DNA from: Syntrophaceae bacterium
GTDB lineage: Bacteria; Desulfobacterota; Syntrophia; Syntrophales; Smithellaceae
Length of the DNA stretch: 64,000 nucleotides
NCBI GenBank assembly: GCA_003142535.1
Contig: PLMQ01000053.1
Coordinates: 16,435-80,434, forward strand
Reading direction: 5' to 3'
Part shown: one piece after another, positions 12,634 to 55,190 of the stretch
Layout: the number at the start of each line of letters is the position of its first letter
Position numbering within the stretch: position 1 is the stretch's first letter
Made by a program: the position numbers and the translations under genes
Notes under the pieces: model-generated
Databases searched by the model: none
The model's input: only the letters and a program-made list of their open reading frames with translations
What the model was told of the DNA's origin: nothing

Positions 12634-12683
12634 GCATAATATGAGTAGCGTTATACCCTCAATTTGCAGTGTTTAGGTTTTTA

Positions 12684-12802
12684 TTCGTGAAACTCAAATT
12701 CCGAAAGCGAAGCGTATTGGAATTGGTAAGTTGAACAATCCCGCGAAGCGGAGGGTATGATATCCCGCAGCGTGCTGCGGAATCAGGGTTCATACCCGTG
12801 AT
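12684..12802 (+). repeat. Rep-B composite element
   Basis: TTCGTGAAACTCAAATTCCGAAAGCGAAGCGTATTGGAATTGGTAAGT + CAATCCCGCGAAGCGGAGGGTAT + ..CATACCCGTGAT. The module order matches 46707-46840. Confidence 0.85.
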
Positions 12803-34539: not shown

Positions 34540-34819
34540 TCACGGGTATTATATCCCTGCTTATACGGGATAATTCGACCAGCAAGCTTCAGCACACTTT
34601 GTTTCTGAAGTTTGGGTCTCATTACAACTTGCCAATTCCGACTTGTGACCTTTAGGTTATACGCTTCGCCCAGCACTCGTGACCTCTCGTCACCTTTAGG
34701 TGGTCAGGTTATACGCCGGGTTACGCTTTCAGAATTGGAGCTTCACGACCGCCGCTTACGCAGGATAGTTCAGCTTGCCAATTCCACTATGCTTCGCTTT
34801 CAGAATAGGAGCTTCACTA
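34540..34819 (-). repeat. Rep-B modular array (about 280 bp) filling most of the cmk-rpsA spacer
   Basis: Starts TCACGGGTAT immediately after the cmk stop. Contains GGGATAATTCGACC, CTTCAG..CTGAAG hairpin, TTGCCAATTCC and GTGACCTTTAGGTTAT modules, and two ..CAGAAT(T/A)GGAGCTTCAC ends. Confidence 0.85.
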
Positions 34820-34920
34820 ATAAAGCGGGAAAATGTGCCGGAATTATCTTGCTATTTATTTTTCAGTATGTTACGCGATATTTCTTAATTAGTTTTACTA
34901 AAAACAGGGGGATTAGTTTA

Positions 34921-39159: not shown

Positions 39160-39280
39160 ATCAAAGATGATATATATTTTATTCGTGAAACTCCAATTCT
39201 GAAAGCGAAGCGTAGCGGAATTGGCAAGTTGAATCCGCCTATGGCGGACTACGCAATCCCGCGATGCAGAGGTTAGTGAT
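39160..39280 (+). repeat. Chimeric repeat: 14-nt Rep-A left-arm fragment joined to a Rep-B element
   Basis: ATCAAAGATGATAT (39160-39173) equals the Rep-A left arm. TTCGTGAAACTCCAATTCTGAAAGCGAAGCGTAGCGGAATTGGCAAGT.. runs from 39182. Confidence 0.7.
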
Positions 39281-45857: not shown

Positions 45858-46226
45858 TTATTTTCCTCGACAGGCTGATTTACCTTTACCACGGCCTTCC
45901 GTTGTTTCGTCTGTTAATTTTCCGTTTTCAAAGGTAAGCGCGTAGATGAAATCATTTTCACCGCAGTTGTAATGCCATACCTCCACTTTATTGCCGCATT
46001 TTTTGATTTTTTTCAGCTTGCCTGATTTGTCGGTAGCTGTGTAGGTATTCCTGTTTTCGCATGTCTTTTCTTTAGACGTCGGTTTTCCGCAGGTGACGGA
46101 TACCTGTGTTTTGGTATCACCACTGCTTACTAAACCTGATCCGCAGCGAAAAGCCCAACTGTTATTGCTGATAAATAAAAAAATAATGATTAATGCGAAA
46201 AAAATAATTCCCTTGGCTACTTTCAT
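45858..46226 (-). CDS. Secreted DUF2845-like small protein
   Basis: Signal peptide, then the CGSGLVSSGDTKTQVSVTCGKP pattern and paired cysteines. Its ATG overlaps the upstream gene stop by 4 nt. Confidence 0.55.
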   Translation of the reverse strand: MKVAKGIIFFALIIIFLFISNNSWAFRCGSGLVSSGDTKTQVSVTCGKPTSKEKTCENRNTYTATDKSGKLKKIKKCGNKVEVWHYNCGENDFIYALTFENGKLTDETTEGRGKGKSACRGK

Positions 46227-47290
46227 TTTTCATCCCCCCTGATTAAAATTAAATATTCATATTTATATAGATCATAAACAAATTGCCGGATAATTTCCTG
46301 TTCATCAGTGTGTGGTACCGATAAACATAGCGCGGTGCGAACCTTGTCATTGAAGTTTAACTTAAGAAAATCGGCAAATGGACCCCGCACGACTTTATAA
46401 TTAAACGTTTCGGCGATTCTCTGCAAGTAAGAAATTTTAATTGTATATTCATCATGGCCTTTAAGGACAATCCTCTCAGGAGCGCCAGATGAATCAAAAT
46501 GGATGTAAGGTTTTAAATAAGCTGGCACCTTTGCTTCGCAACTATGTTCGCTCAGATATATGTATTTTATTCCGGCCAGGCATAAGTTTTCCAATGCTTC
46601 CCACGCACCGGTATTTATGCTCTCGCCCTCTGTTATGGATAATTGGTATTTTTCAATAAAATCTATAGCTTTCTCGTACGATAATTCATCATCTGAATTA
46701 TCTTTGTTCGTGAAACTCCAATTTCGCAAGCGAAGCGTAGCGGAATTGGCAAGTGGAACAATCCCGCGAAGCGGAGGGTATAATACCCCACAGCTTGCAG
46801 CTAAATATTTCCGAAGATTGCTTTGGGGTTTATACCCGTGGGTGTCAGAATAAAATGCTAATGTGGGCAGATCCCCCAGATTTTCGTTCATTATTACCAT
46901 GTCGAAAAGAGAAAGTGAATTTATTTCAATTTGCAAAATGTCTTTTTCTAAAAAATTTACGGGGGATCCCTGCAAAATTTCTTTTTGTTTGGCTAAGAGA
47001 TAGGGAGAAATATCGAGCATAGTTGCCTTGAGCCGCGGATTTAGAGAGAGAAAATCATGCATAAGATATCCCATGCCGCCGCCGATTTCGAGAATGGTGC
47101 TGATATTGCCCATAGGGATTATTTTTTCTAAGTAACGATAAAGCTGTGCGCCGAATGGTTCGTTGGATTGCAAAGCCTTACGGCAGGGGCTTTGGGGAGG
47201 ATAAAGCGCATTACAGACAGTAAGCTCCCAGCCTAGTGAATTCAAATCGTTGATATGGTATTTATTGGTTGTATTTAAAAAAAAGTCCAT
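46223..47290 (-). CDS. SAM-dependent methyltransferase (MidA/DUF185-like) carrying an in-frame Rep-B insertion
   Basis: ILEIGGGMGYLMHDFL motif I and VIMNENLGDLPT (compare the NE..DALP block of MidA-type enzymes). Residues HGYKPQ..WSFTN are encoded by the repeat. Confidence 0.6.
   Translation of the reverse strand: MDFFLNTTNKYHINDLNSLGWELTVCNALYPPQSPCRKALQSNEPFGAQLYRYLEKIIPMGNISTILEIGGGMGYLMHDFLSLNPRLKATMLDISPYLLAKQKEILQGSPVNFLEKDILQIEINSLSLFDMVIMNENLGDLPTLAFYSDTHGYKPQSNLRKYLAASCGVLYPPLRGIVPLANSATLRLRNWSFTNKDNSDDELSYEKAIDFIEKYQLSITEGESINTGAWEALENLCLAGIKYIYLSEHSCEAKVPAYLKPYIHFDSSGAPERIVLKGHDEYTIKISYLQRIAETFNYKVVRGPFADFLKLNFNDKVRTALCLSVPHTDEQEIIRQFVYDLYKYEYLILIRGDEK
46707..46840 (+). repeat. 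Rep-B composite element inside a coding region
   Basis: TTCGTGAAACTCCAATTTCGCAAGCGAAGCGTAGCGGAATTGGCAAGT + CAATCCCGCGAAGCGGAGGGTAT + ..TATACCCGTG, collinear with 12684-12802. Confidence 0.85.
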
Positions 47291-47299
47291 TGTATCTTC

Positions 47300-50089
47300 T
47301 TAAATATCTATTGAAAGTATATAATATTCCACTTTACTTTTTGGATAGAGCGCCTCCATGATCTTTGTGTAGCGCGTAAGCTGTTCATCGTATTTTTGTC
47401 TAAACCCCCGCATTGAGCCCGATTTATAATCAATGATTGTGATAAGATTATCGGCTACGAGCATTCTATCCACTATACCAAAGTTCTTTTTATCCGATAT
47501 CTGCTGCTCGATATAGAGCTTGCCCGGCCTAAACATTATGACAGAAACATCGCTCCTTTCGACAAAACGAATCGCTGCCCCATATTCCTCATCGTTCAAT
47601 TCTCCGGCGGGTGGGAGTTCAGCTTGATCAACAACCTTCGCCAGCCAGCGGTGAAGCCGTTCACCACGCATAATACCAGCCTTAATATAGGCAGATATAA
47701 GCGTCGGGTCAATCTCGCCATACTTATCTGGTTTATCATTATGTTTTTCGGGTACATCAAATATTGTTATGCTTTCAGCCGCTTTTGCAGGGCCGGACAA
47801 AGAGCAAATCTCCTTTTTAACGCCATCAGGTGCAAACTGCGAAAATGTATCAAGTACTGCCTGATGAACATCCTTGTAGTTCTCATCTTTCTTTGTTGGC
47901 AGAAAAACTGTAAGTGTTTGTATTGCCCTTGTCGCGGCGACATAGAAAACATTGGCCTTCTCGCGGCGCATCCGCATCAGATTTTCTTCACGATTTTCAA
48001 TAATATCCTTGGCAATGGCCGAATTGCTGGCGCCTAAGAACTCAAACTCCTTACTTGTAAATTGCACATGACATTTCTCAGTGCTCAGATAGAGTGGCGA
48101 TTCTTTTTCTTCCTCATTCCAGAAAACAAAAACATGCTTAAACTGAAGCCCTTTTGTCCCGTGGACAGTATCAACCTTAATATATTCCCGATTCTCGGCC
48201 TCAGGCACCTTCACCCTAAACCGTATATTGAACATTCGTACAAGGAAGCCATCTACGTCAGCGCCGCCTTCACTAAAGAATGACTGTGCCTCATCCTGCC
48301 ATATATCAAGTATTGTTGCGGGCAGCTTCCCGCGCAAAAGCTCAACAGCACAACTTACAGCCATTAGCCCGAAAGGCTGGGGAAATTTTTTAGCAAACTC
48401 AGTCTGGACATCCTCTATATTCCCGAATATCTCACTCCATAACGGCGACTGCGCCGCTATTTTAGTAAATTGTGTATCAACATCTTTGGCAAGAACACCT
48501 GCGATGAAAAGCATTACCGCAACACCTTCTTTTGTCGAAAGAAGTTGCCTCCCTTTGACCTCGGAAACACCGATGCCTTCCTTTGCCAGTTCAGAGGCTA
48601 TCTTCTGAACATGGTTGTTGGTAGCTGCCAGCACCGCCATATCGCCCCACTGACAGCCATACTCTACTTTTTTTGCTTTCAAAACCTCAAGTATCGCGGT
48701 ATAAAAAGTGGCTTCCGATTTGCCATCTTTTTCCAGCTCGACAAGGTTTACTTCTGTCGCGCCATCAAACCCGTTAGTTTTTACCGGCGGTTTTTGCGTT
48801 TCAGTTCTTTCTTTTCCGGCAAAGAGATTTTCTACAAGTTTATTAAAAAAAGAGATAAGAAGCGGTGTGCTTCTAAAGTTATATTCCAGCGAGCTTTCAG
48901 TTATTACGCCGTTTTCTATATAGTTCCCAATCGCCAGTTCCAGCGCATCGCGGTTTGCGCCACGCCATCCGTAGATCATTTGTTTCCAATCGCCCACGGC
49001 AAAGAACGATCTTGCGCCGCGCTCGCCATGACCGGATAAAATCTCATCAATAAGGGGAAGCAGTATCGCAATATCGCCTATCGAGGTATCCTGAAATTCG
49101 TCTATCAGAAGATGCTCAGTCCGATCAAGCCCAAGCGAGAAGTAGTTGCTCATAAGCTTCGGCCTTTCACTCGATGCGGTACCGTCAAGGGCAAGGAGGC
49201 CTTTGCGCACATCGGAGAAAAATATCAACCCTTTTTCTTTCTTAACAGTATCTGCCGCAGCAAGATATATCTCACAAAGAAACGCAACTGCCAGCTCCCT
49301 AAGGAGAGCCTTATTTATTGATAGCTTTTCGGCTGCCTTTCTGTAATCCTTGAAAATTTTGTTAAGATCGGAGTACGGGCTATTATCCCACTCTATATTT
49401 TTGCTCAGGCTCTTGTAATTTTGCAGATCAGAATGAGTTGCAACTGTTTTGGAAATAAAACTGTCATAATCGGTCAAAGCTTTTATAACCCTATTTTGAA
49501 CATTACCAGCCGGGATCTGTTCCGACAAATTATTCGCCTTTTTACTAAGAGATTCCAGCGTATTCCTTAATATGCCGTTCTCTTTCATAATATCATCAAG
49601 ATCTTCCAACCTATCCATATCCGAAAGACAGCGCCCGATAGTTTGTTCATCGGCAAGAGGCCCCCAAAGTGTATCAATGTCTGTTCCCAATATCCTGGCA
49701 GCTATTATGAGCTTATTTCCCTTGCCGCTTCTTATTACGCTATCGCGAAAAAGGTTTTCGATCTCACCAGATAATTCTATCTGTGCCTTCTCATCAGCCA
49801 ACTTTGGCGCAAAACCGGATGCGGCAAACAGCCTGTAGAAAAAGGAATCTATCGTCGAATACCCGACGCGACCCGCCTCCATAATAAGTCCCAGCCTATC
49901 CAACAGGAGCATGTCTTTTTTTGATGCTATCTTTTCCATTATACGGGAGCGCATCTCGGCTGTGGCTGCACGCGTAAATGTAAGGGCGGAGATGAATTTT
50001 CCTCTGATAGATATTCTGTTAAATACCTCATCGGTAAGCCTTGTTGTTTTTCCCGAACCTGCCGAAGCTTTCAGAAGAATACTTTCCAT
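47300..50089 (-). CDS. addA: AddA-type UvrD-family helicase with C-terminal PD-(D/E)XK nuclease
   Basis: ASAGSGKT Walker A, LLIDEFQDTS, VGDWKQMIYGWRGA, VHGTKGLQF, YVAATRA and the C-terminal IIDYKSG..QLTRY nuclease motif. Confidence 0.8.
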   Translation of the reverse strand: MESILLKASAGSGKTTRLTDEVFNRISIRGKFISALTFTRAATAEMRSRIMEKIASKKDMLLLDRLGLIMEAGRVGYSTIDSFFYRLFAASGFAPKLADEKAQIELSGEIENLFRDSVIRSGKGNKLIIAARILGTDIDTLWGPLADEQTIGRCLSDMDRLEDLDDIMKENGILRNTLESLSKKANNLSEQIPAGNVQNRVIKALTDYDSFISKTVATHSDLQNYKSLSKNIEWDNSPYSDLNKIFKDYRKAAEKLSINKALLRELAVAFLCEIYLAAADTVKKEKGLIFFSDVRKGLLALDGTASSERPKLMSNYFSLGLDRTEHLLIDEFQDTSIGDIAILLPLIDEILSGHGERGARSFFAVGDWKQMIYGWRGANRDALELAIGNYIENGVITESSLEYNFRSTPLLISFFNKLVENLFAGKERTETQKPPVKTNGFDGATEVNLVELEKDGKSEATFYTAILEVLKAKKVEYGCQWGDMAVLAATNNHVQKIASELAKEGIGVSEVKGRQLLSTKEGVAVMLFIAGVLAKDVDTQFTKIAAQSPLWSEIFGNIEDVQTEFAKKFPQPFGLMAVSCAVELLRGKLPATILDIWQDEAQSFFSEGGADVDGFLVRMFNIRFRVKVPEAENREYIKVDTVHGTKGLQFKHVFVFWNEEEKESPLYLSTEKCHVQFTSKEFEFLGASNSAIAKDIIENREENLMRMRREKANVFYVAATRAIQTLTVFLPTKKDENYKDVHQAVLDTFSQFAPDGVKKEICSLSGPAKAAESITIFDVPEKHNDKPDKYGEIDPTLISAYIKAGIMRGERLHRWLAKVVDQAELPPAGELNDEEYGAAIRFVERSDVSVIMFRPGKLYIEQQISDKKNFGIVDRMLVADNLITIIDYKSGSMRGFRQKYDEQLTRYTKIMEALYPKSKVEYYILSIDI

Positions 50090-52509
50090 CAGTTATTCCC
50101 CCGTGAAGCCTTATAATAAGCTTCTCTTCCGCATAGTGCCTGAAACTGGCAGTATTCACACTCCTGACAGTTATGCTCAGATAGAAGTTCACTGCCGCCG
50201 ATTATTGTATCTAAGCGCTCCTTAATAGCCAGCATAAGCTCATCCGCCGTAGCACTCTGCTCCTGTGGAAGCACCATAACCCGATCTTTTGCGGATTCTT
50301 TCAGGAAATAAAAACGAGCACCTTCCACACCTTCATTAAAGTGCTGATAGATGATAAGCTGCGCCGCAGGGTGCAGAACACCTTTTTCTTTAAAGCGCTC
50401 CAGCACTGTTGTTCTTTCTGAGATCTTATACTTGCCTATTTTTTTTGAATATTTGAAATCAATAACCTCGGTACGCCCTGCTATGTTGGCCAGTCTATCT
50501 AAGCGTCCGGTTATCTTATAGTAGCCGGCGATCATACCGCTGAATTTTTCCTCGCACGATATAACATTATCGGCAAAAACTATGCGCTCGCCTGCCTCCA
50601 GCTCGTCTTCATATATCTCCTTTAATAACAACTTTGCGTTAAGCATGTAGATATTTATCCCATCAATATTTCTTACTGCGGCGTTATCATTATTCTGCCA
50701 CAACTCATCAAAAAGATTCTCCCAGTTATTCAGCATTTCCTTACGGTCAGTCGAGAGTTGTTGCAGGAATTTATGGACAAAATTTCCCATCTGCATATTT
50801 ATTTTCTCATCATCATCCATAAATGAAGGGGCTTCCATCTTAAGTATATATTGATGGTAGAACAAAAACGGGCACGCCAGAATATTTACAAGACTTGAAA
50901 ACGAATAGGTGAGATCTTTAAGCCTGCTCCTTAGATTATCATCAATTGGTATCGAAGGCTTTTTAGTAATTTGCTTTTCAGGAAGTGGTTCTTTAAATGC
51001 TATTGTCGTTATAGGCTTCCCAAATTCCTGCGAAAGAAGGCTCATATAATAGCTGGGAGTTCTTTCCCGTAGTTTATCGTCCACCGCTGCTATTTTGATC
51101 CTGTCGCCCTGCGCCAGAATCTGCCGGAAAAGAAGGTCCTCGTATTCAAATACACTTTTTCTCATCTGTGGAACATGCACTGGATTGATGAAAGGCCCTT
51201 CAAAAGGCTGTGTCGGCATTATGCCGCTATCAAGTGGAAGTATTAATCCCCGGCTGAATCTCTCTCCCGAAACATGGCCGAAACCGACAACCTGCACCGG
51301 TGCCGATCTGCTCCCTGTGATGCGAAATTTTTTCGCTTCGATAAACATTTTCGCAGCTTCAGTTAGATTACGCCCCAGCCTCTCTTTCCAATCATCAAAA
51401 AGGGTGGAAAAAGATACGGCAGTCTCCAACGCCTCACACTCCTCACGGACATAATTCTCTCTATTCTTCGATAATTCAATCGCGCAGTTTGTGGCATATC
51501 TCTTAAAATCAGGCATTAAGCATGCATGCTCAGCCTTTTCTATCTCCGCCAAAAGCCTTCTGCCTGCCGAAGTTGTCGAGAACGGCAGCCAAACAGCAAG
51601 ATTGACGGCACTTCCGAACAGGCGCAGCGATCTGTTCCAGAGCATTGTTGTGAGCGACTCATCAAGCAGGAATATCATCAACTGATCTATTTCCGACCGT
51701 TCTTTAAGGAAATTGGAAATCTCCAGTGTGACCAGGTCAACTATCGCATGAAGCCCGGGAAGCCTGATCAGCTCAATACCTGCGCTTGCTGAGGGCGCGA
51801 CCTCGCCGCCGAATGACAAAACAAGATTTTTTGCCGAATCAAACGGAAGCGGATCTAGCCCGGATAATTCCAGCCCGAAAATCGGCTTATCAATGAATAA
51901 CTGTTCTTTGCTTATCTTTCTATAAAACCGCTCTGTCACTGGCGTTATCTCGGGCAGTCCGATAAATATTTCCTTTTCGCCCGGAGTGATCTCATCCAGC
52001 CGCGCTATTTCAAGTTCCGGCATAAATAGATTTATTGCGGAAAGCCACACGCGAAAAGCCTGTGCAGTTTCGAGGTATTCCTCCAGTCTATTCCATTCAT
52101 CTTCGGTAAAGCGCTCTGCGCCGAAAATATTATTTTTGCTAATATTATATTCAGCGAGTTTGGAAATAAGCGGAAGAAGACTGGCGGCGTGACGTGCCGG
52201 ATATGGTTGATCAGGAAACCGCTCGGCAATGAACGAGATAAAGTAAAGTAGCCGCTCATCATCCAGTAGCGGCTGAAGTTTCGATCTTTCAGTAATCTTT
52301 TTAGTTATATATGATTTAAAGCTTTCGACTTGGGGAAGTATACCGCCAAGATCGCAGCGTATAAGGTGCTGCACGGGGTCAACAGCCTTGTCGTTTGCAC
52401 AAATTATCGCCCAGGCGGAAAGATCAGGATAATCATTGCGCAGAAACTCCATTAACTTTCCCGAATATTGCGACATGCTGTCTCCTAATGAATATATGTT
52501 GTTTTTCAC
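50089..52509 (-). CDS. addB: AddB-type nuclease subunit with Fe-S cysteines
   Basis: No Walker A. C-terminal VIDFKYS..AQLIIYQ PD-(D/E)XK motifs flanked by Cys (ILACPF) and CQECEYCQFQALC. The stop overlaps the addA ATG by 1 nt. Confidence 0.7.
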   Translation of the reverse strand: MKNNIYSLGDSMSQYSGKLMEFLRNDYPDLSAWAIICANDKAVDPVQHLIRCDLGGILPQVESFKSYITKKITERSKLQPLLDDERLLYFISFIAERFPDQPYPARHAASLLPLISKLAEYNISKNNIFGAERFTEDEWNRLEEYLETAQAFRVWLSAINLFMPELEIARLDEITPGEKEIFIGLPEITPVTERFYRKISKEQLFIDKPIFGLELSGLDPLPFDSAKNLVLSFGGEVAPSASAGIELIRLPGLHAIVDLVTLEISNFLKERSEIDQLMIFLLDESLTTMLWNRSLRLFGSAVNLAVWLPFSTTSAGRRLLAEIEKAEHACLMPDFKRYATNCAIELSKNRENYVREECEALETAVSFSTLFDDWKERLGRNLTEAAKMFIEAKKFRITGSRSAPVQVVGFGHVSGERFSRGLILPLDSGIMPTQPFEGPFINPVHVPQMRKSVFEYEDLLFRQILAQGDRIKIAAVDDKLRERTPSYYMSLLSQEFGKPITTIAFKEPLPEKQITKKPSIPIDDNLRSRLKDLTYSFSSLVNILACPFLFYHQYILKMEAPSFMDDDEKINMQMGNFVHKFLQQLSTDRKEMLNNWENLFDELWQNNDNAAVRNIDGINIYMLNAKLLLKEIYEDELEAGERIVFADNVISCEEKFSGMIAGYYKITGRLDRLANIAGRTEVIDFKYSKKIGKYKISERTTVLERFKEKGVLHPAAQLIIYQHFNEGVEGARFYFLKESAKDRVMVLPQEQSATADELMLAIKERLDTIIGGSELLSEHNCQECEYCQFQALCGREAYYKASRGNN

Positions 52510-54452: not shown

Positions 54453-54927
54453 AAATGCTTGTCGGCAGGTGATAATCGACCTGATGAATAATGATGACCT
54501 ACCCGAAATTATGGCTATCGAGAAAGAATCATTTGTATCACCATGGACACCGGGAATGTTTATAGGAGAAATTGAAGCCCGACAATCCCAGTGCCTGACT
54601 GCAAAGATTAACCTGAGTAAAAAAGTCATAATTGGCGGTTACATTGTTTTTTGGATAGTTGTCGATGAAGCGCACTTACACAATCTGGCTGTAAAAAAGG
54701 AATATCGCCAGCAGGGATTGGCGCGGCATCTCCTGGAAGTGATGTGGGAAATATCAAGGCAGGAAGGATTGAAATCACAGACTCTAGAAGTCCGGGAATC
54801 AAATGCAGAAGCAATAAGACTTTACCAGAAATGCGGTTTTGTAGTAAAAGGAAGGAGGCCGCTTTATTACACGGATACCCGGGAAGATGCAATAATTATG
54901 TGGGCAGATGTGAAATCACGGGTATGA
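54442..54927 (+). CDS. rimI: Ribosomal-protein-alanine N-acetyltransferase (GNAT)
   Basis: IMAIEKESFVSPW, LHNLAVKKEYRQQGLARHLL (acetyl-CoA site) and NAEAIRLYQKCGF. The last 4 codons and the stop lie in Rep-B. Confidence 0.8.
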   Translation: MCSENACRQVIIDLMNNDDLPEIMAIEKESFVSPWTPGMFIGEIEARQSQCLTAKINLSKKVIIGGYIVFWIVVDEAHLHNLAVKKEYRQQGLARHLLEVMWEISRQEGLKSQTLEVRESNAEAIRLYQKCGFVVKGRRPLYYTDTREDAIIMWADVKSRV

Positions 54928-55186
54928 GAACCCCAAAGCAGCTATGGTGTATTTTATACCCTCCGCTGCGCGGGATAATTCGACCATCAAACTTCAGCTT
55001 GTGACCTTTAGGTTGCGCACTTTGTTTCTGAAGTTTTGGTCTCATTACCATCCGCTGAGCGGGATAATTCGACCTGCAAACTTCAGCTCACTTTGTTTCT
55101 GAAGTTTGGGTCTCATTACAACTTACCAAGTTCAACTTGTGACCTTTAGGTTATGTACTACGTTTTTAAAATTGGAGTTTCACGAA
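54916..55186 (-). repeat. Rep-B modular array (about 270 bp) filling the whole rimI-pyrK spacer
   Basis: TCACGGGTAT..ATACCCTCCGCTGCGCGGGATAATTCGACC..two CTTCAG/CTGAAG hairpin modules..two GTGACCTTTAGGTT modules..AATTGGAGTTTCACGAA, ending 4 nt before the pyrK ATG. Confidence 0.85.
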
Positions 55187-55190
55187 GAAA

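What the first reader, a model, noticed from the sequence alone, without database searches (positions are those of the whole stretch)
46707..46840. Rep-B element inserted in frame inside a methyltransferase gene (RPE-like behaviour)
The 355-aa MidA/DUF185-like methyltransferase ORF reads straight through a complete Rep-B element. Residues ..HGYKPQSNLRKYLAASCGVLYPPLRGIVPLANSATLRLRNWSFTN.. are encoded by the repeat, just after the VIMNENLGDLPT block. The intergenic copy at 12684-12802 translates on the same strand to the near-identical SAARCGISYPPLRGIVQLTNSNTLRFRNLSFTNK. A third copy gives ILYPPLRGIIRPSNF (54.9 kb). So the element keeps a stop-free frame. In-frame colonisation of genes by palindromic repeats is known for Rickettsia palindromic elements and is otherwise uncommon. 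The host gene may be tolerant of the insertion, inactivated, or may have gained a surface loop.
Basis: partly seen in the sequence, partly recalled or inferred. Interest (0 to 1): 0.6.

Follow-up and report, generated by a model that had tools for sequence, protein, structure and literature searches.

The report
Hairpin repeat inserted in-frame in methyltransferase
A 135-base copy of a small hairpin-forming mobile repeat, present about 440 times in this Smithella-family genome, sits exactly in frame inside a conserved methyltransferase gene and adds a 45-residue floppy loop, as the "selfish DNA in protein genes" of Rickettsia does, but in a different repeat family and host.

Summary
The 355-aa ORF at 46223-47290(-) reads through one repeat copy at 46709-46843 (135 nt, residues T150-T194). 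Orthologs are 309-311 aa. None of 14 aligned orthologs carries the segment, and in every one of the 57 same-family genomes with a match the hit is split around it. AlphaFold2 models it as a disordered loop (pLDDT 28-44) in an otherwise confident class I methyltransferase fold.

The repeat has about 440 copies at 309 loci in this genome. It has sharp ends, three hairpins, no terminal inverted repeats and no target duplication. It sits 3' of a host TTAT(T)/TTGTT motif. It was found in 19 of 24 same-family genomes and in 0 of 16 other families of the order.

Six more genes here carry in-frame copies: ComEC, a RumA-like methyltransferase, TANGO2, an HPr-kinase-like gene, a second methyltransferase and a ketoacyl synthase. 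At least two genes are broken by copies (HepT, an MFS transporter). Shared in-frame insertions persist between species.

The transposase is unknown, and neither Y1 transposase gene tracks the repeat.

The scan reported the same behaviour earlier for comEC in this genome.

The parts
46223..47290 (-). Class I SAM-dependent methyltransferase gene, 355 aa. It would be about 310 aa without the insertion.
   Evidence: ORF. Pfam Methyltransf_12/25/28 are over their cut-offs. 967 homologs were found, with typical lengths of 309-311 aa. The AF2 model has pTM 0.78.
46709..46843 (+). Inserted repeat copy, 135 nt. The element runs on the + strand and is translated on the - strand as T150-T194 (THGYKPQSNLRKYLAASCGVLYPPLRGIVPLANSATLRLRNWSFT).
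   Evidence: A clean 45-column gap in all 14 orthologs. Codon-level junctions against P0002/L042. nhmmer score 132.8 bits for HMM positions 1-138. As RNA it folds at -43.7 kcal/mol, z -2.75. pLDDT is below 50 for residues 153-197.
46703..46708 (+). Host T-rich target motif TTTGTT next to the element's left end. It encodes N195-K196 on the - strand.
   Evidence: The left flank of 239 copies shows a conserved TTTATT next to unconserved flank. Orthologs have (N/D/G/H)K at this position. Empty orthologous sites of other insertions already carry TTTATT, CTTAT or TATGTT.
12680..12802 (+). Intergenic copy of the same repeat.
39178..39233 (+). Partial copy (left module, hairpin 1).
54914..55190 (-). 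Cluster of three adjacent full or partial copies.
   Evidence: Cluster C13 71348-71624. Pattern hit.
34543..34824 (-). Two partial copies upstream of the S1-domain protein gene.
   Evidence: C13 50977-51060 and 51183-51258.
47300..50089 (-). Upstream UvrD/AddA-like helicase-nuclease gene. It ends 10 nt before the methyltransferase start.
   Evidence: The same AddB-AddA-MT-DUF2845 order is seen at the ortholog locus L042.
45858..46226 (-). Downstream DUF2845-like secreted protein gene. It overlaps the methyltransferase stop by 4 nt.
   Evidence: PF11006 lies next to the ortholog in L042.

Best explanation
A non-autonomous, hairpin-built mobile repeat of Smithellaceae inserted into the methyltransferase gene. 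The full element is 135 nt. It has three stem-loops, no terminal inverted repeats and makes no target duplication. It inserted directly 3' of a T-rich host motif (TTTGTT). The inserted block is 45 codons long, and in this orientation and phase the copy has no stop codon. The gene therefore stays one ORF, and the protein gains a 45-residue unstructured loop in a linker after motif IV (NENLGDLP) that already varies in length and sequence among orthologs. The copy survives because it does not break the protein. Copies that break genes are mostly purged, and most copies sit in intergenic DNA. The stop-free frame is a by-product of the sequence, not a selected property. Shown here: the insertion, its exact borders, its absence from orthologs, the loop location, the genome-wide family, six further in-frame cases, two disruptive cases, and long-term retention of shared in-frame copies in relatives. 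Inferred: that the methyltransferase is still active, and that the element moves by a single-strand, target-motif-directed mechanism of the IS200/IS605 or REP type supplied in trans (about 0.3 for that step).
For: There is a 45-aa gap in 14 of 14 aligned orthologs. In every one of the 57 same-family genomes with a match (57 of 60 searched), the hit is in two pieces, query 1-~150 and ~200-355, within open frames of mostly about 310-330 aa. The junction codons against the closest ortholog are GAC|ACC...ACG|AACAAA. In the AF2 model, residues 153-197 have pLDDT 28-44 while the rest is at 80-95. There are 440 nhmmer hits, 176 of them near full length, at 309 loci. The ends are sharp and a TTTATT lies next to the left end. 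The consensus folds into three hairpins as DNA, z -4.2. Stems are 80-98% paired, with compensatory changes in hairpin 1. Six other ORFs read through copies, with Pfam domains on both sides, and orthologs lack those segments. Empty orthologous sites already carry the T-rich motif and show no duplication. HepT and an MFS transporter are interrupted by copies. The ComEC copy is shared by three genomes of two genera. A radical-SAM copy is shared by G002 and G018 across flank dS 0.46-0.80, with insert omega 0.22. The AddB-AddA-MT-DUF2845 gene order is conserved.
Against: No close relative of this genome (the only member of its genus held) shows how old the insertion is. The insertion lies only 8 residues after the catalytic-loop motif. 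No transposase could be tied to the element. The RAYT-like gene beside one repeat cluster and the second Y1 gene do not co-occur with the repeat in relatives, and the repeat-rich G002 has no Y1_Tnp match at all.
Confidence: 0.85

Rival explanations
1. The insertion has inactivated the methyltransferase. The ORF is intact only because the event is recent, so this is a pseudogene in the making.
For: The copy is close to the family consensus (132.8 bits, among the best scores), so the insertion may be young. It lies 8 residues after the motif IV loop. Other genes in the genome are clearly broken by copies.
Against: All 60 invariant alignment columns are kept. The rest of the fold is modelled with confidence. 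The site is the most variable linker of the family. Comparable in-frame copies in ComEC and a radical-SAM gene have been kept in frame across species and genera, with the host genes under purifying selection (omega 0.12-0.14). The gene sits in a conserved, tightly packed operon.
Confidence: 0.1
2. The inserted segment has been co-opted. Either the new loop provides a function such as a binding surface, or the hairpins in the mRNA regulate translation or stability of the operon.
For: In the radical-SAM gene shared by G002 and G018, the insert shows omega 0.22 and a lower dS (0.26) than the flanks (0.46-0.80). The mRNA segment folds stably.
Against: The counts are tiny (5 nonsynonymous and 6 synonymous changes). 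A low dS is equally expected from hairpin constraint or from gene conversion among copies. The loop is predicted disordered. The same peptide occurs in unrelated proteins. The methyltransferase insertion is unique to this lineage.
Confidence: 0.04
3. The segment is ancestral protein sequence lost elsewhere, or an assembly artefact at a repeat.
For: None beyond the fact that this is a draft genome of 70 contigs.
Against: The segment was not seen in any of the 57 family genomes with a match, nor in the aligned metagenomic orthologs. It is 86% identical to intergenic copies at the DNA level. Both junctions lie within one gene, in order and in frame. A separate JGI contig is 100% identical across it.
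Confidence: 0.01

Closest known systems
Rickettsia palindromic elements (RPE; Ogata et al. 2000 Science 290:347, as summarised in review PMC10969869)
   Same: Both are repeats of about 100-150 bp that form hairpins and are dispersed in many copies. In both, copies sit in frame inside unrelated housekeeping genes, the ORF is kept, and the extra peptide lies where the fold tolerates it.
   Different: This is a different sequence family and a different host, a free-living syntrophic family rather than an obligate intracellular one. The genic share is far lower: 7 in-frame plus at least 2 disruptive among 309 loci, whereas the review says nearly half of the RPEs lie in ORFs. Sequence relatedness to RPEs was not tested.
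Intragenic ERIC elements, Coxiella QMITE1/2 and other prokaryotic MITEs that give in-frame fusions (PMC10969869; PMC5896051)
   Same: They are small non-autonomous repeats that occasionally lie in frame within ORFs, or supply C-terminal residues and stop codons.
   Different: Classical MITEs have terminal inverted repeats and target-site duplications. Neither was found here.
IS200/IS605-type single-strand transposition, its miniature derivatives, and REP/REPIN-RAYT systems (own knowledge of the families; REPIN paper PMC3116915 seen by title and abstract only)
   Same: There are no terminal inverted repeats and no target duplication. The element has subterminal hairpins and inserts directly 3' of a short conserved host motif. 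One RAYT-like gene lies beside a repeat cluster.
   Different: No cognate Y1 transposase tracks the repeat across relatives, and the repeat-rich G002 has none. The element is longer and more modular than a REP.
Small dispersed repeats (SDR) of Nostocaceae (Elhai et al. 2008; a lead from earlier scan notes e1-2380301 and e1-2371741, paper not read here)
   Same: Both are tiny hairpin repeats that nest into one another. Here, nested inserts were seen in the loops of the HPrK and MFS copies.
   Different: The phylum is different. No sequence comparison was made here.

Membership tests
[quoted passage not shown] | Dispersed hairpin-forming repeat of about 100-150 bp | tested here: met
   440 hits, 141-nt HMM, three hairpins, DNA fold z -4.2.
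[quoted passage not shown] | In-frame insertion in unrelated protein genes with the ORF kept | tested here: met
   Seven genes in this genome, each checked against orthologs.
[quoted passage not shown] | Insertion at a position compatible with the fold (surface loop) | tested here: met
   In the AF2 model the insert has pLDDT 28-44 and the rest 80-95. The site is a linker that varies among orthologs. This was modelled for the methyltransferase only.
[quoted passage not shown] | A large share of copies inside genes (nearly half in Rickettsia conorii per PMC10969869) | tested here: not met
   About 9 of 309 loci are genic.
[quoted passage not shown] | Sequence homology to the RPE-1 to RPE-10 families | not tested
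   No RPE sequence was at hand. There was no Rfam match on the region.
MITE (classical) | Terminal inverted repeats | tested here: not met
   The ends ...NGTGAAACTCC and ATACCCGTG(ATT/GGT) are not inverted copies of each other.
MITE (classical) | Target-site duplication | tested here: not met
   No duplication was seen at the methyltransferase, TANGO2, KAS or HPrK junctions when compared with empty orthologous sites.
IS200/IS605-derived or REP/RAYT-type element | Insertion 3' of a specific short motif, with no TIR, no TSD and subterminal hairpins | tested here: met
IS200/IS605-derived or REP/RAYT-type element | A cognate Y1 (HUH) transposase in genomes that carry the element | tested here: not met
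   The two Y1_Tnp genes of G000 do not co-occur with the repeat. G002 (98% complete, repeat-rich) has no PF01797 match.
Class I SAM-dependent methyltransferase (host gene) | Rossmann-fold SAM-binding domain with the GxGxG motif | tested here: met
   PF08242 scores 34.2 bits (cut-off 30) and PF13649 28.8 (cut-off 27). The EIGGGMG motif is kept. Foldseek hits are all methyltransferases.
MidA/DUF185 (PF02636) subfamily | A full-length match to the family profile | tested here: inconclusive
   23.7 bits against a 23.3 cut-off, covering only profile positions 18-116 of 249. The best fold hit is 1zkd, with TM only 0.43.

The most novel reading that the evidence does not exclude
The Smithellaceae hairpin repeats may be a recurrent, lineage-wide source of new protein loops. 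On this reading, in-frame copies are kept for long periods under constraint at both the peptide and the hairpin level (as hinted by omega 0.22 and reduced dS in the copy shared by G002 and G018), and are moved by a transposition system not yet described (target TTATT, no TIR or TSD, no cognate Y1 transposase found).
Probability: 0.1. Interest if true: 0.75.

Novelty: new member of a known kind. Interest (0 to 1): 0.45.

Why it matters
This is a clean example, outside Rickettsia, of mobile repeats inserting into housekeeping proteins without breaking them. It comes from a free-living syntrophic lineage important in methanogenic hydrocarbon and propionate degradation. The genome holds both the survivors (seven in-frame copies) and the casualties (two broken genes). 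Relatives hold shared in-frame copies that have lasted across species. Together these make a usable natural data set for three questions: where proteins tolerate 30-70-residue insertions, how such loops evolve, and what enzyme moves TIR-less, TSD-less hairpin repeats. For annotation, these repeats create spurious peptides, extended N-termini and odd-length orthologs in Smithellaceae MAGs.

Tried and rejected
(1) Linking the element to a transposase. A RAYT-like Y1 gene (C57 20304-20993) lies beside a cluster of three partial copies. However, its homologs are missing from the repeat-rich G002, G017 and G018 and present in repeat-free families. The second Y1 gene occurs only in G000 and G011. 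PF01797 has no match at all in G002. I therefore rejected it as a demonstrated partner.

(2) An in-silico excision screen for ORFs restored by removing copies. It mostly fused neighbouring genes, because copies sit in very short intergenic gaps, so it cannot be used as a count. It did point to the HepT and MFS disruptions, which one search confirmed.

(3) The idea that the element keeps an open frame under selection. I rejected it because 37% of shuffled consensus sequences have at least one open frame, and half of the full copies have none on that strand.

(4) Rfam search on the region: no family matched.

(6) A search of the protein collection with the 47-aa peptide region. Only 5 candidates came back because of the word index, so it gives no census.

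(7) Empty-site comparisons for RumA and ComEC. The global alignment misplaced the gap, or the ortholog locus was cut, so they were not used.

Full report
**1. The observation**

The window is G000:C13:16435-80434, part of a 2.93-Mb, 70-contig genome. The ORF at 46223-47290(-) is 355 aa and has no internal stop. It matches class I SAM-methyltransferase profiles: PF08242 at 34.2 bits, PF13649 at 28.8 bits, and a borderline partial PF02636 at 23.7 bits against a 23.3 cut-off.

The repeat core CCGCGAAGCGGAGGGTATAA occurs three times in the window against 0.01 expected. The copy inside the gene is 86% identical over 104 nt to the intergenic copy at 12680-12783.

**2. It is an insertion, not ancestral sequence**

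The collection holds 967 homologs, named "class I SAM-dependent methyltransferase" of Smithella or Smithellaceae where a name is given. They are typically 309-311 aa. Aligned with 14 of them, the window protein has one clean 45-column block that all the others lack.

I searched 60 other genomes of the same family. All 57 with a match gave two pieces, query 1-~150 and ~200-355, inside open frames of mostly about 310-330 aa. G000 is the only genome with a contiguous 1-355 match.

The codon-level comparison with the closest ortholog (P0002, locus L042) reads:
- Host: ...TTT TAT TCT GAC | ACC CAC GGG ... TTC ACG | AAC AAA GAT AAT...
- Ortholog: ...TTT AAT GCT GAT | GGC AAG GAT GAT...

The inserted block is therefore window 46709-46843, exactly 135 nt, residues T150-T194. 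A JGI metagenome contig (L041) is 100% identical over 1159 nt, including the element and both junctions. Whether it comes from an independent sample is unknown. The gene order AddB-AddA-MT-DUF2845 is the same at the insertion-free ortholog locus.

**3. Where it sits in the protein**

An AlphaFold2 model built on the ortholog alignment has mean pLDDT 77 and pTM 0.78. Residues 153-197 have pLDDT 28-44 and no secondary structure, while the neighbouring blocks are at 80-95. The site is the linker between the post-motif-IV segment (NENLGDLPTLAF) and helix 199-215. Among orthologs this is the most variable stretch in sequence, and it differs by 1-2 residues in length. Foldseek finds only methyltransferases. 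The best hit is 1zkd at TM 0.43, so the MidA-like label is weak.

**4. The element**

Iterated nhmmer over the genome gives 440 hits at 309 loci, 176 of them near full length on a 141-position model. Conservation stops abruptly at both ends. The first six model positions (TTTATT) are moderately conserved, and the flanks beyond are AT-rich and unconserved.

The consensus folds as DNA into three hairpins at -27.7 kcal/mol, z -4.2. Across 94 full copies the stems are 80-98% paired, and hairpin 1 shows compensatory double changes, for example CG 56 / TA 17 at pair 22-41. There are no terminal inverted repeats.

Shorter variants of about 117 nt and about 82 nt keep both ends and lack parts of hairpin 3. 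Some copies carry nested inserts in loops.

The family was found in 19 of 24 other genomes of the same family and in none of 16 genomes from 16 other families of the order. Copies up to 92% identical to the consensus occur in other genera. There is no Rfam match. A 2026 comparative-genomics paper on Smithellaceae does not mention such repeats.

**5. Target and mechanism**

At the empty orthologous sites of other intragenic copies, the T-rich motif is already present:
- TANGO2: ortholog ...ATA TTT ATT|ACC, host ...ATT TTT ATT|TGTGAAAC...
- KAS: ortholog TCT TAT|GCC
- HPrK: ortholog TAT GTT|

Nothing is duplicated at the other end. In the methyltransferase the element follows host TTTGTT, which encodes N195-K196, a position where orthologs have (N/D/G/H)K.

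So the element proper is 135 nt, it inserts 3' of TTAT(T)/TTGTT, and it makes no target duplication. An earlier scan note (e1-2380301) had stated the TTATT association, and I confirmed it here.

These properties resemble single-strand HUH (Y1) transposition of the IS200/IS605 or REP-RAYT kind. That resemblance rests on my own knowledge of those families. The enzyme itself was not found:
- G000 has two Y1_Tnp genes, one RAYT-like and adjacent to a repeat cluster.
- Homologs of the first are missing from the repeat-rich G002, G017 and G018 and present in repeat-free families.
- The second occurs only in G000 and G011.
- G002 has no PF01797 match at all.

The mechanism of movement is therefore inferred and uncertain.

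**6. It is not an isolated case**

Six more ORFs in this genome read through a copy and have real protein on both sides. Pfam domains span or flank each insert.

| Gene | Location in G000 | Peptide frame and size |
|---|---|---|
| ComEC | C12 82741-85392(-) | NHGYEPQS...NWSFTNK frame |
| RumA-like methyltransferase | C32 14690-16009 | NHGYEPQS...NWSFTNK frame |
| Second methyltransferase | C57 45528-46520 | NHGYEPQS...NWSFTNK frame, short variant |
| HPr-kinase-like | C57 33387-34478 | opposite strand, F.ETPIPK...; 70 aa including a nested insert |
| TANGO2 | C55 11004-11930 | opposite strand, 41 aa |
| Ketoacyl synthase | C54 977-2233 | opposite strand, 28 aa |

Orthologs in G002, G006, G007, G017 and G018 lack these segments, with contiguous hits on either side. 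ComEC is the exception: G007 and G017 carry a copy at the same position with the same sequence variant. G007's copy has an in-frame internal deletion, and G017's gene has stops downstream. The ComEC case had already been reported by this scan (e1-2204565).

In G002 and G018 a radical-SAM gene shares an in-frame 39-codon copy. The flanks have dS 0.46-0.80 and omega 0.12-0.14. The insert has omega 0.22 and dS 0.26, from 5 nonsynonymous and 6 synonymous changes, which is too few to weigh heavily. A 560-aa membrane protein from another metagenome also carries the peptide internally.

At least two genes here are broken by copies. A HepT/DUF86 gene ends at the TAA inside a forward-oriented copy. An MFS transporter is split by a 179-nt copy.

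**7. Interpretation**

About 9 of 309 loci are genic in a genome that is mostly coding, and 7 of those 9 keep the frame. This fits either insertion followed by purging of harmful copies, or a preference for AT-rich intergenic targets, with in-frame stop-free copies surviving in tolerant loops.

The open frame of the consensus is not evidence of selection for coding compatibility. One of six frames is open, and 37% of shuffles do as well. Only 47 of 94 full copies have any open frame on that strand.

I judge that the methyltransferase most likely remains functional, for four reasons:
- All 60 invariant alignment columns are kept.
- The fold is intact in the model.
- The gene sits in a conserved, tightly packed operon.
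- Similar in-frame copies have been retained for long periods in relatives.

This is inferred, not shown.

**8. Comparison and verdict**

The behaviour matches that described for Rickettsia palindromic elements and, more occasionally, for ERIC and Coxiella QMITEs (PMC10969869, PMC5896051). It is not a classical MITE, because it has no TIR and no TSD. It is not shown to be an RPE homolog, and its genic fraction is far lower than reported for RPEs.

It is a new member of a known kind, in a repeat family that appears undescribed in the literature I could search. Other follow-ups in this scan had already noted it on other pieces of the same genome.

Noticed in passing
G000:C7:113527-114034 (outside the window): A HepT/DUF86 toxin gene downstream of a MntA-like nucleotidyltransferase is interrupted by a 117-nt repeat copy. 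The N-terminal piece ends at the TAA inside the element.
   Followed up: partly
G000:C32:11208-12208 (outside the window): An MFS-type transporter is split by a 179-nt repeat copy. That copy itself carries small nested inserts (GTGACCT...TTAGGTTA type) in a hairpin loop.
   Followed up: partly
L031:536-1864 (G017:C7, RumA-like ortholog): This ortholog carries, about 17 residues from the G000 site, an in-frame segment from a different repeat type (…PPAGAGGSFPKRDIPRLAENIQPPAGAGG…). More than one hairpin-repeat family therefore seems to colonise genes in this bacterial family.
   Followed up: no
G000:C57:20004-20993: A RAYT-like Y1 transposase gene (230 aa) has a cluster of three partial repeat copies 30 nt past its stop. 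No copy was detected on the other side, and its homologs do not track the repeat in relatives.
   Followed up: yes
G000, many loci (e.g. C10:13243-13381, C15:53711-53856, C62:1821-1939): Copies often fill very short gaps between co-directional genes. The upstream ORF runs right up to or into the element, so the repeat may supply C-terminal residues and the stop codon.
   Followed up: no
G000:C57:33738-33953: The copy inside the HPr-kinase-like gene has about 75 nt of extra sequence nested in the loop of hairpin 1, yet the whole 70-codon block stays in frame.
   Followed up: partly
L032 and L033 (G018:C1, G002:C13): In the shared in-frame copy within a radical-SAM gene, synonymous divergence is lower (0.26) than in the flanking gene (0.46-0.80). 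This hints at nucleotide-level constraint or gene conversion. The counts are very small.
   Followed up: partly
window 45858-52509: The order AddB, AddA, methyltransferase, DUF2845 is tightly packed (10-nt gap, 4-nt overlap), and the same order is found at the closest ortholog locus L042. The methyltransferase may work with the AddAB nuclease-helicase.
   Followed up: partly
P0121 (297 aa, public metagenomes): A UbiE-like methyltransferase is annotated with the repeat peptide at its extreme N-terminus. This probably reflects a start codon called too far upstream, through a 5' copy.
   Followed up: no
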